NCBI RefSeq assembly: GCF_009914755.1
Contig: NC_060941.1
Origin: the human T2T-CHM13v2.0 reference genome, Homo sapiens
Direction: 5' to 3' (one strand)
Length of the DNA: 64,000 nucleotides
Below, one piece after another: positions 20,408-23,400 of this stretch (within the stretch, counting starts at the first letter, position 1; every line of letters begins with the position of its first letter). Both the position numbers and the translations under genes were made by a program. The notes below the pieces were generated by a model, which saw only the letters and a list, made by a program, of their open reading frames with translations, did no database searches and had not been told where the DNA came from.

Positions 20408-20455
20408 TTATTCCACCTGCCCCTATGTATAAGCGTTACCACCCTAATTATGCTT
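20408..20455 (+). repeat. 48-bp local duplication, copy 1 (copy 2 at 22546-22593)
   Basis: ttattccacctgcccctatgtataagcgttaccaccctaattatgctt; 48/48 identical. Confidence 0.95.
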
Positions 20456-23400
20456 GTTTTTGTTTTTTTGGTTGTTTGAGACGGAGTCTCTGTTGCCCAG
20501 GCTGGAGTGCAGTGGCACGATCTCGACTCACTGCAACCTCTGCCTCCCAGGTTCAAGCGATTCTCTTGCTTTAGCCTCCAGAGTAGCTGGGATTACAGGC
20601 ACGCGTCACCACACCCAGCTAGTTTTTTGTATTTTCAGTAGAAACAGGATTTCACCAAGTCGGCAAGGATGGTCTTGAACTCCTGACCTCAAGCAATCCA
20701 CATGCCTTGGTCTCCCAAAGTGCTGGGATTACAGGCGTGAGCCATCGCTCCCGGCCTCCTAATTATGTTTCATTTTGGTTAATGTTTCAATAAATGTGCT
20801 TTCCCTAAACATACTGATGAAAAGAGGCCCAAATGCAAAACTGATTTGTCGAGAAAGTCAGTCTGAGATGAAATATTTATTATGTCTAAACCACAAGTAG
20901 AAAAAAATTCAAAGGCCGACTATTTCAATGCTAACTCAATGCAATATTGCACTTCGTTTGGTTTACGGGAGAGGTAATTTACACAGCTAACATTTGGGTT
21001 TTCAAGATTACATTGTGGGGAGAGAAGGGGAAAACAAGAAAAGTCTAATGCTTTTAGATTCTGTCAGAAAAAGTGTTTGCTAAAAAGCAAAACAAAATGA
21101 ACATGAGAAAAAATGTGAAAAAACATGCATTTTAGGAAGCTTTCACCGAAGCAGGTGCTCAAGTTCAGACTCAAATCTTCCAACTCTTGTAATAAAAATG
21201 AGAGGTCAGAATACCACAAACTAATCAAATCAATCAAACAAAGCGGGAAACAGGTGGCTGACACCAGACTGGGCAGGGTTTTCCTAAATTGGGCTTACCT
21301 TCACTAATCCAAATCAGTTTTCAGAAATGGCTTCTATAAAAACTACCCAAACATCCCCCTAATAATTTGCACTCCTCCTCCACAATAGGGAAGCCAAGCC
21401 GTTTATTTCCCAGAAGGTTTACTTTCTCTTTCAAGCTCTGCTGGCTTCTTCCTGCCCCGCATACGGCCAGGAAAAAAGAAAAGCACTGCCTTTTCTTTCC
21501 TGCCTTCTCTAAAACTGGGGAGATGGGGTGAGAGAACCTGTTTCATGGACAAGCTGGGTGGTTCTTAACTGCAACACTGTTCTGAATACAGATTAGTTTG
21601 CAAAGGAAAGTTACAGGACAGGAAAATAAAGGTCTACCCCTCCAACTAACTCATACACATGTACATTTGCATGTACGCACACACACAGATGTGAGGGCAC
21701 ATTTAATTCAGCTGAGTAATGTGCAGCAATCAGCTCCCAGCTTCATACCTGGCCACCGGGATGCCTCCTCACTCCCACCTTCTTTACCTGACTCAAAATA
21801 AGGTTCCTCCTGTTGGCTTCTTCCTGAGACACAACCAACTCTAATCATTCCTCTTCCCCTCAAACCTTCAACACTACCTGCACTTTCTGGGTCGGGAGCA
21901 ATTCCTTGGGTGGTAATCCATTTTTAATGTGTTAAATATTACTTAAAATAAGGGAGAGGTAATCATGGACTGTGGGCAATGCAGAGATTTATCAGAAGGG
22001 CATTTGTGTAAACAGGAATTTACAGTTTGCCTTACCTATTCCTTTTATATGACAGCCTCAATTTCCTCTAACAGAATGTAAGTCCCCCATCCCTATTCAT
22101 TTAGTTTTTTTCCCATTAGGTTAGAATCTGCTAATTATTCTTTCTCTCCTTTGGGTCATTAGTGGCTGCCATGAATCATAATTTGCCTGACTTTGTAATA
22201 TCTAACAGATATTACCATTTTAGTTTAGTTTTTGATATGACAGTTTTTTGTTTTTTGTTTTTGTGACGGAGTCTTGCTCTGTCTCCCAGGCTGGAGTGCA
22301 GCGGCGCGATCTCAGCTCACTGCAACCCCCACCTCCTGGGTTCAAAAGCAATTCTCCTGCCTCAGCCTCCCGGGTAGCTGGGACTACAGGCACCCGCCAC
22401 CACAACAGGCTAAATTTTATATTTTTAGTAGAGACGGGGTCTCACTATGTTGGGCAGGCTGGTCTTGAACTCCTGACCCGCCTCGGCCTCCCAAAGTGCT
22501 GGAATTACAGGCGTGAGCCACCATGCCCGACCTCCTAATTATGTTTTATTCCACCTGCCCCTATGTATAAGCGTTACCACCCTAATTATGCTTTTTGTTT
22601 TTCGGTTTTTTTGAGACAGAGTCTCACTCTGTCACCCAGGCTGTAGTGCAGTGGCACGATCTCGGTTCACCGCAACCTCCGCCTCCCGGGTTCAAGCGAT
22701 TATCCTGCCTCAGCCTCCCGAGTAGCTGGGATTACAGGTGCCCACCACCACAACTGGCTAATTTTTATATTTTTAGTAGAGACGGGGGGGGTCTCACTCT
22801 GTTGGGCAGGCTGGTCTTGAACTCCTGACCTCAGGTGATCCACCCGCCTTGGCCTCCCAAAGTGCTGGGATTACAGGCGTGAGCCACCGCACTCGGCCTG
22901 ATATTATAGTTTTTAATAAGAGTAATTCAGCCTAGGCAACGTGACGAGATCCTGACTCAAAAAAATTAGAAAATTAGCTGAGGGTGGTAGCACACACCTG
23001 TAGCCCCAGCTACCCCGAAGGCTGAGGCAGGAGGATCACTTGAGCCTAGGAGGTCAAGGCTGTCATGAGCTGTGATCTCACCGCTGCACTCCAGCCTAGG
23101 TGACAGAGTGAGAACCTGTCTCAAAAAATAAATAGTAATAATAGTAATTATTAGCACTTGAATGTTACCTGTCTGCCCGGCACTATGCAAAGTACTTGAT
23201 ATGCATCATCTTGCTTCATCCTCTCAATTACTCTACAAGTGGACCTCGTTTCCACAATTGTGGACAGAGAAACTGAAAACCAGAGAAGTGAAAACAACAG
23301 GCCCAAGGTCTAAGAGAAGGCAGAACTGGGATTAAAGCCCAATAGGTCTGACCTGATAGTCCACTCTTTTAACTGCTATAGTAACTTTGGACCATGAAAC

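What the first reader, a model, noticed from the sequence alone, without database searches (positions are those of the whole stretch)
20408..22914. Circularly permuted Alu-flank copy: fossil of circle integration or a double template switch in STAT3 intron 1
Seen: Alu A (20456-20756, minus) has a left flank L (48 bp, 20408-20455), a right flank R (tcctaattatgttt, 20757-20770) and its own TSD cctaattatg(c/t)tt. About 2 kb away the order is Alu B (22249-22532), R (22533-22546), L (22546-22593), Alu C (22594-22898), so A's flanks reappear in swapped order joined at a short T-rich microhomology. The whole B-R-L-C block is bounded by one TSD pair (tgatatgacagttttt 22233-22248 / tgatattatagttttt 22899-22914, 14/16). 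B and C share private variants that A lacks (caccacaac, ttttatattttt, tctcact, ttgggcagg). Inference: one ancestral Alu was duplicated while capturing a permuted copy of Alu A's flanks. This could arise from a ~360-bp circle [L-AluA-R] recombining in via Alu homology with conversion, or from serial template switching (B head to A head, jump back to L, A tail to B tail). Ordinary retrotransposition or 3' transduction does not give this order.
Basis: partly seen in the sequence, partly recalled or inferred. Interest (0 to 1): 0.8.

Follow-up and report, generated by a model that had tools for sequence, protein, structure and literature searches.

The report
Alu flanks copied between tandem Alus
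A 61-base patch made of the two flanks of one Alu, in swapped order, sits exactly between two older neighbouring Alus 2 kb away in STAT3 intron 1, most likely a neutral scar of DNA repair or replication that briefly used the first Alu as a template.

Summary
Alu A's left flank L (48 of 48 bases) and right flank R (14 of 14) recur 2.1 kb away in the order AluB-R-L-AluC. They overlap by 1 T, and one 14-of-16 target-site duplication (TSD) pair bounds the block. L occurs only at these two places in the genome.

- Identity stops within 0-2 bases of the Alu edges.
- B's 5' part and C's 3' part are not A-like: 10/55 and 19/135 differences against 0/62 in the flanks. A ranks 35th of 63 and 18th of 64 as their nearest Alu.
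- B and C are not one duplicated Alu. They differ at 31/268 sites and resemble each other specially only at Alu positions 70-143 (3/74), where they share variants that are near-private genome-wide.

Best reading (about 0.6): B and C were already a head-to-tail pair inside one TSD. A break or stalled fork at their junction primed short synthesis on Alu A, aligned by Alu homeology. This copied R outward from A's 5' edge and L outward from A's tail, and the pieces joined at 1-2-base microhomologies.

A circle or tandem copy of L-A-R used as template stays possible (about 0.15). No outgroup genome could be searched. This is a member of known templated-insertion and Alu template-switch events, of low to moderate interest.

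The parts
20408..20455 (.). L, donor copy: unique sequence on the poly-T (3') side of Alu A. Its last 13 nt (20443-20455) are A's left TSD.
   Evidence: 48/48 identical to 22546-22593. Only two copies in the genome.
20456..20756 (-). Alu A: old, full-length, and the template whose two edges anchor the copied flanks.
   Evidence: 33/278 differences from the window-derived Alu consensus. It has private states and a private 4-base deletion found in neither B nor C.
20757..20770 (.). R, donor copy: one extra T plus A's right TSD (20758-20770).
   Evidence: 14/14 identical to 22533-22546. The exact block extends 2 nt into the Alu, 20755-20770.
22233..22248 (.). Left outer TSD of the B-C block. It abuts B's poly-T tail; the pre-insertion site reads TTTTT/AA.
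   Evidence: 14/16 match to 22899-22914. 24 of 200,000 random 16-mer pairs reach this. Sequence read.
22249..22532 (-). Alu B: full length, with a 14-base deletion of sense positions 56-69.
   Evidence: Its 5' end differs from A at positions 3, 8, 9, 10 and 12.
22404..22477 (-). Tract of B (sense 70-143) that is specially similar to C, taken to be a gene-conversion tract.
   Evidence: 3/74 differences from C; the next-nearest Alu has 9/73. Rare shared states 93C, 101A, 106G, 128T and 142T. Coordinates.
22533..22546 (.). R copy, in register with B's 5' end, including A's extra T.
22546..22593 (.). L copy, ending exactly where C's poly-T tail begins. It shares base 22546 with the R copy.
22594..22898 (-). 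Alu C: full length. Its tail is not demonstrably A-derived.
   Evidence: Tail comparison: A's tail scores 9, tied with 6 others among 49 tails.
22752..22829 (-). Tract of C (sense 70-143) that is specially similar to B.
   Evidence: Genome-wide pattern counts.
22899..22914 (.). Right outer TSD of the B-C block, abutting C's 5' end.

Best explanation
B and C were already two different Alus lying head to tail inside one TSD pair. Either B inserted into C's A-tail, or the pair formed in one insertion event.

Later, a double-strand break or a collapsed replication fork arose at their junction. The broken or nascent 3' ends paired with Alu A, 2 kb away in the same orientation, guided by Alu homeology. 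The end carrying B's 5' edge lined up with A's 5' edge and copied 14 nt outward (the extra T plus the TSD, i.e. R). The end carrying C's tail lined up at A's tail and copied 48 nt outward (L).

The break lay between two Alus, while the template has a single Alu. So the two syntheses ran away from each other, and A's flanks ended up in swapped order. The pieces were joined at a 1-nt T overlap, either by end joining of the two extended ends or by a backward template jump in a serial-switch (MMBIR-type) event.

The result is a 61-nt templated insertion. No Alu was duplicated and no function is implied.

Shown: the exact copy blocks, their register with the Alu edges, the non-A-like and non-duplicate nature of B and C, and that A is the donor.

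Inferred: the break or fork, the order of steps, the earlier B-C state, and a separate roughly 50-100-nt gene conversion between B and C.
For: 1. The copy blocks are exact (16 + 48 nt) and stop within 0-2 nt of the Alu edges on both sides. A's idiosyncratic extra T between Alu and TSD is kept next to B.
2. The Alu sequence next to the blocks is not A-derived. A-B at positions 1-55: 10/55 (non-CpG 5/43). A-C at 144-282: 19/135 (non-CpG 10/112). Flanks: 0/62. Fisher p = 3e-4, 1e-3, 0.011 and 0.016. A ranks 35/63 and 18/64 as nearest Alu for these segments.
3. B and C are distinct elements: 31/268 differences, with no rare shared derived state outside 93-143. If the flanks were as old as the B-C split, the chance of 0 differences in them is about 0.008-0.02.
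4. Head-to-tail Alu pairs are common here. There are 10 other same-strand adjacent pairs with gaps of 80 nt or less among 68 Alu matches.
5. Junction overlaps are 2 nt (CC), 1 nt (T) and up to 2 nt (TT), read. This is the signature reported for Alu-mediated template switching and MMEJ (PMC6071635, passages read).
6. The donor is intact, nearby and in the same orientation. L exists nowhere else.
Against: - No outgroup or population data could be reached. Both collection scans gave 0 hits, so the pre-event state (B directly abutting C) is not observed.
- With CpG sites removed, the contrasts are only p of about 0.01-0.03.
- B and C are each other's nearest neighbour overall at non-CpG sites (0.062 against 0.074 and 0.085 for the next). 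Their similar tract (3/74) is not distinguishable in age from the flanks (0/62, p 0.25). An origin of part of B/C in the same event is therefore not excluded.
- The pairing partners are only about 82% identical, which is poor for classical strand invasion.
- Two-ended repair, a serial switch and a circular template give the same product and cannot be separated from sequence.
Confidence: 0.6

Rival explanations
1. A circular (about 362-bp, L-AluA-R) or tandemly duplicated copy of the A unit already carried the R-L junction and served only as a template. One broken end at the B/C junction invaded at A's 5' edge and copied R, then the circle junction, then L. It then re-annealed to C's tail. This is ordinary gap repair with no integration of the circle's Alu.
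For: It explains the R-L junction as a pre-formed joint, with a single continuous 61-nt synthesis. The 1-nt overlap and the circle size (48+301+14-1 nt, from the coordinates) are in the range recalled for microDNA; I did not check this in a paper. It is compatible with every result, because B and C keep their own sequence.
Against: It needs an extra unobserved intermediate. No trace of a tandem A unit exists in this genome: L has only 2 copies. Repair templated by small circles in the germline is not something I found documented. One search returned reviews on eccDNA reintegration, seen as listings only.
Confidence: 0.15
2. A single Alu X between the outer TSDs was duplicated by serial template switching (X to A's edge, R, jump to L, back to X). 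B and C later diverged, or their outer parts were overwritten by conversion from other Alus.
For: One TSD pair bounds the block, and neither B nor C has its own TSD. B and C share a variant combination seen in no other Alu of the genome: 5 and 36 pattern hits, with only B and C in both lists. The tract 70-143 (3/74) is as similar as the flanks (p 0.25).
Against: Outside 70-143, B and C differ at 28/194 sites and rank 6th-23rd of 63-64 as each other's neighbours. They share no rare derived state there, and the five rare shared states are clustered (p 0.003). The model needs at least two later conversions by outside Alus, against one between neighbours. The chance that the flanks stayed 0/62 over that divergence is about 0.01.
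Confidence: 0.12
3. An excised circle L-AluA-R integrated into Alu X by one homologous crossover inside the Alu.
For: The topology (TSD-Alu-R-L-Alu-TSD) is what a circle-by-linear crossover gives.
Against: It predicts B = X tail + A 5' part and C = A tail part + X 5' part, with one shared breakpoint. No A-like tract exists in either Alu beyond 2 nt. It predicts no B/C shared tract, yet one exists. A's private 4-base deletion is absent from C.
Confidence: 0.03
4. An assembly error, or an RNA-mediated origin (transduction, a chimeric retrocopy, or a circular intronic RNA copied by L1 reverse transcriptase).
For: All three Alus are in sense orientation to STAT3 transcription, so an RNA carrying R, A and L exists in principle (gene table in the finding).
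Against: The patch has no poly-A and no TSD of its own. Its order is the reverse of the transcript order. The base after L's transcript-side end is not a splice-site or terminator context (read). An RNA route would also carry A's body, which is absent. The block is 680 bp of non-identical sequence, which is unlikely to be misassembled; I could not test this.
Confidence: 0.03

Closest known systems
Alu/Alu-mediated rearrangement by template switching (MMBIR/FoSTeS) or MMEJ (Song et al. 2018, PMC6071635; passages read)
   Same: The switch points are in register between two diverged Alus. Microhomologies are very short. The template is nearby and in the same orientation. Short templated pieces sit at the joint.
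   Different: There is no deletion or duplication of the interval and no chimeric Alu. The switches sit at the extreme edges of the Alus, so only the template's two flanks (14 and 48 nt) were copied, in permuted order, into the joint of a tandem Alu pair.
Class 2 templated sequence insertions / TSIPs (Onozawa and Aplan 2016, PMC5110952; abstract and passages read)
   Same: A short patch is copied from elsewhere into a presumed break. It has no TSD or poly-A of its own and has end-joining-type junctions. The donor is retained.
   Different: Those patches are described as coming from distant regions and as RNA-derived. Here the donor is 2 kb away and bipartite, it is anchored by repeat homeology at both ends, and its order excludes a linear RNA.
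eccDNA / microDNA reintegration (reviews listed, not read)
   Same: The circular permutation of a roughly 362-bp unit is the expected footprint of a circle.
   Different: The circle's Alu is not present in the product, so integration by crossover is excluded. At most, a circle acted as a template.
Alu gene conversion between neighbouring or ectopic Alus (Kass, Batzer and Deininger 1995; recalled, not read here)
   Same: The 70-143 tract shared by B and C looks like a short conversion tract between neighbours.
   Different: The flank patch lies outside the Alu and cannot arise from conversion between aligned Alus alone.
L1-mediated 3'/5' transduction and chimeric retrocopies
   Same: One TSD pair with a TTTTT/AA cleavage site encloses two Alus.
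   Different: The linker carries both flanks of another locus in reversed order, without A's body. This is not obtainable from one transcript.

Membership tests
Circle integration by homologous crossover in an Alu | Permuted order: the donor's right flank joined to its left flank, between two Alus | tested here: met
Circle integration by homologous crossover in an Alu | The two resulting Alus are reciprocal hybrids: donor-like next to the captured flanks, recipient-like next to the TSDs, with one common breakpoint | tested here: not met
   A-B at 1-55 is 10/55 and A-C at 144-282 is 19/135, against 0/62 in the flanks. A ranks 35/63 and 18/64. A's private deletion at 267-270 is absent from C.
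   B-C is 31/268. Rare shared states occur only at 93-142 (clustered, p 0.003). Outer parts are 28/194, with ranks 6-23 of 63-64.
Templated insertion by Alu-guided template switching or strand invasion (MMBIR / SDSA plus end joining) | The inserted pieces are exact copies of a retained nearby donor | tested here: met
   16 + 48 nt are exact. The donor is intact 2.1 kb away, and there are only two copies in the genome.
Templated insertion by Alu-guided template switching or strand invasion (MMBIR / SDSA plus end joining) | Junctions sit at short microhomology, and switches between repeats are in register | tested here: met
   CC (2 nt) at B/R in Alu register, with A's extra T kept. T (1 nt) at R/L. 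TT or less at L/C.
Templated insertion by Alu-guided template switching or strand invasion (MMBIR / SDSA plus end joining) | The recipient site lacked the insert before the event (an empty allele in outgroups or in the population) | not testable with these tools
   No primate or pangenome data are held. The scans gave 0 hits.
L1-mediated insertion of the patch (class 1 TSIP / transduction) | The patch has its own TSD, a poly-A and an order collinear with a transcript | tested here: not met
   No TSD or poly-A flanks the 61-nt patch, and the order is reversed.
Dispersed repeat family containing L | Many copies of L in the genome | tested here: not met
   2 matches genome-wide for the 61-nt query, both in this window. 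Very old, diverged copies would escape so short a query.

The most novel reading that the evidence does not exclude
The R-L joint is the closure joint of a roughly 362-bp extrachromosomal circle (microDNA) excised or copied from L-AluA-R, which then templated germline repair at another Alu pair. That would make this a fixed fossil showing that small circles can write sequence back into the human germline without integrating.
Probability: 0.15. Interest if true: 0.6.

Novelty: new member of a known kind. Interest (0 to 1): 0.3.

Why it matters
It is a clean natural example in which the geometry of the product shows how it was made. A lesion between two tandem repeats was repaired on a single-copy repeat, and this turned the template's flanks inside out. 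The same footprint could be searched for genome-wide to measure how often diverged Alus serve as ectopic repair templates without causing deletions or duplications. Such events are invisible to CNV-based surveys. For STAT3 itself nothing suggests a functional effect: the site is deep in intron 1, about 7 kb from the annotated silencer and enhancer elements in the hub's table.

Tried and rejected
1. Extension of the copy into C's poly-A tail. A's and C's tails both carry an internal CC, but A's tail is not a special match (score 9, tied with 6 others among the 49 other tails). 5 of 50 tails contain CC. Dropped.
2. A rare Alu subfamily as the source of the B/C shared variants. The 23-mer pattern has 5 genome hits and the 29-mer has 36, and only B and C appear in both lists (the tool says counts are lower bounds). 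The other three 23-mer loci are unrelated old Alus, 72-86% identical to A, B and C. Rejected.
3. A derived from B-C by excision of a circle. A would then be a C-tail/B-head hybrid, and it is not. A's TSD is canonical. Rejected.
4. Unequal crossover between A and X. This gives R followed by the 1.46-kb spacer, not by L. Rejected on topology.
5. Outgroup search through contaminant sequence in genome contigs and viral contigs. 0 hits each.
6. Other inter-Alu linkers in the window with copies elsewhere. Of the 9 linkers tested, only the B-C linker had a non-simple second copy.
7. Literature on this locus. The search 'STAT3 / intron 1 / Alu / structural variant' returned 9 papers, none about this structure by title or abstract.

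Full report
**What is there**

I read 20200-23100 and compared the parts.

Locus A reads, on the + strand: unique sequence L (20408-20455), then a minus-strand full-length Alu A (20456-20756), then R (20757-20770). R is one extra T followed by a 13-nt TSD. The other copy of that TSD forms the last 13 nt of L. The two TSD copies differ at one base (C against T).

Locus B-C, 2.1 kb to the right, reads: TSD1 (22233-22248), Alu B (22249-22532), R (22533-22546), L (22546-22593), Alu C (22594-22898), TSD2 (22899-22914).

- L is 48/48 identical and R is 14/14 identical between the two loci.
- Exact identity covers 20755-20770 = 22531-22546 and 20408-20455 = 22546-22593. It breaks at the next base on every side.
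- R and L share exactly one T.
- The B-C copy keeps A's extra T and A's C/T TSD mismatch. It therefore derives from the filled and already mutated A site, not from an empty site and not the reverse.
- TSD1 and TSD2 match at 14/16. Only 24 of 200,000 random 16-mer pairs from the window do as well. Neither B nor C has a TSD of its own.
- The pre-insertion site reads TTTTT/AA next to B's tail, which is the usual L1 endonuclease site. That the site is typical is recalled knowledge; the sequence is.
- A 61-nt query spanning L finds 2 places in the 3.1-Gb genome, both here. L is not a dispersed repeat at this sensitivity.

**Are B's head and C's tail A-like?**

I collected the window's Alus with blastn (102 matches). 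I aligned the 65 that cover at least 270 of 305 positions (A, B, C and 62 others) and took the majority of the 62 as reference.

- Next to R, B differs from A at sense positions 3, 8, 9, 10 and 12.
- Over positions 1-55, A-B is 10/55 (non-CpG 5/43).
- Over 144-282, A-C is 19/135 (non-CpG 10/112). A's private 4-base deletion at 267-270, seen in 0 of the 62 others, is absent from C.
- Against 0/62 in the flanks, these give Fisher p of 3e-4 and 1e-3. With CpG sites removed they give 0.011 and 0.016.
- Ranked against all other Alus of the window, A is the 35th of 63 nearest to B[1-69] and the 18th of 64 nearest to C[144-282].
- C's tail is not demonstrably copied from A's. Its alignment score of 9 is tied with 6 others among the 49 other tails.

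The copied tract is therefore confined to the flanks, within 0-2 bases of the Alu edges. This contradicts integration of a circle by a crossover inside the Alu, which needs reciprocal A-like halves.

**Are B and C one duplicated Alu?**

- Overall they differ at 31/268 sites (non-CpG 14/224). C is 83.2% identical to B by blastn, and 68-88% identical to the other Alus of the window.
- They are each other's nearest neighbour at non-CpG sites (0.062, against 0.074 and 0.085 for the next), but only because of one segment.
- At positions 70-143 they differ at 3/74, while the next-nearest Alus differ at 8-9/73. At 1-69 and 144-282 they rank 6th to 23rd of 63-64.
- All rare shared derived states lie at 93-142: 93C (2/62 others), 101A (12/62), 106G (6/62), 128T (3/62) and 142T (1/62). 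Five random sites span that little in 0.3% of trials.
- Genome-wide, the 23-mer carrying 93C/101A/106G has 5 hits and the 29-mer carrying 128T/142T/143T has 36. Only B and C are in both lists (counts are lower bounds). The other three 23-mer loci are unrelated old Alus.

One gene conversion between neighbours explains this most simply.

Outside the tract, B and C share nothing beyond common CpG changes. This is what two independent Alu copies look like. If the flanks had been copied when B and C separated, the chance of 0 differences in 62 bases is about 0.008-0.02.

A caveat applies. The tract (3/74) and the flanks (0/62) are not distinguishable in age (p 0.25). The conversion and the patch could therefore belong to one repair episode.

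**Mechanism**

Head-to-tail Alu pairs are common here. There are 10 other same-strand adjacent pairs with gaps of 80 nt or less among 68 Alu matches. They usually arise when one Alu inserts into another's A-tail (established knowledge). That leaves one outer TSD pair, as seen at B-C.

Given such a pair, a break or collapsed fork at the B/C joint leaves one 3' end finishing in B's 5' edge and another finishing in C's tail. If both pair with the single Alu A, each can only be extended outward, into R and into L. Joining the two extensions puts R before L.

The same product arises from one nascent strand that switches three times: from B to A's edge, from R back to L, and from L to C's tail. The overlaps at the three joints are CC, T and at most TT. 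The first switch is in Alu register.

This is the pattern reported for Alu-mediated template switching and MMEJ, where diverged Alus give in-register joints with short microhomology (PMC6071635, passages). The patch also fits the description of class 2 templated sequence insertions, break patches without a TSD or poly-A (PMC5110952, abstract and passages). It differs in having a local, bipartite, homeology-anchored donor.

I give it about 0.15.

**What is not shown**

No outgroup or population sequence was available. The only collections that could have held stray primate DNA gave 0 hits. The pre-event allele, the date and the fixation status are therefore inferred. The upper age bound from 0/62 is loose. 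Misassembly was not testable.

Literature searches listed no paper describing this locus or this swapped-flank footprint by title or abstract. I read only the passages cited above, so this is not a claim that nothing is in print.

**Verdict**

The structure is real and non-random, and its geometry was correctly seen. The proposed Alu duplication and circle crossover are contradicted by the Alu sequences themselves. It is best filed as a small templated insertion produced by Alu-guided repair or replication switching, with no sign of function. It is a tidy example rather than a new kind of event.

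Noticed in passing
window 22477-22478 (Alu B, sense positions 56-69 missing): B lacks 14 bases that C has (the stretch tcaggtgatccacc in C). 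The deletion is bounded by a 3-nt ACC repeat and lies directly at the edge of the B/C-similar tract, 55 nt from the patch. It could be a scar of the same or an earlier repair event.
   Followed up: partly
window 22844-22856 (Alu C): One match to the degenerate 13-mer recalled as the human recombination-hotspot motif lies in Alu C, about 250 nt from the patch. 15 matches occur in the window against 2.7 expected, and 9 of them are the same CpG-decayed Alu site. This is a lead only for where a break might have come from.
   Followed up: no
window 22928-23148: An older, partial plus-strand Alu-like element starts about 14 nt to the right of TSD2. It forms 168-nt inverted repeats (75% complementary) with Alu C, 186 nt apart (pair I1). 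Close inverted Alus are known fragile configurations.
   Followed up: no
window 44918-45000: A GAAA-type microsatellite showed up as repeated short hits when inter-Alu linkers were searched.
   Followed up: no
window 12192-13116, 51765-52660, 55901-56494: Runs of two or three same-strand Alus lie nearly end to end, with gaps of 0-65 nt. They show how frequent tandem Alu pairs are in this intron and its neighbourhood.
   Followed up: partly
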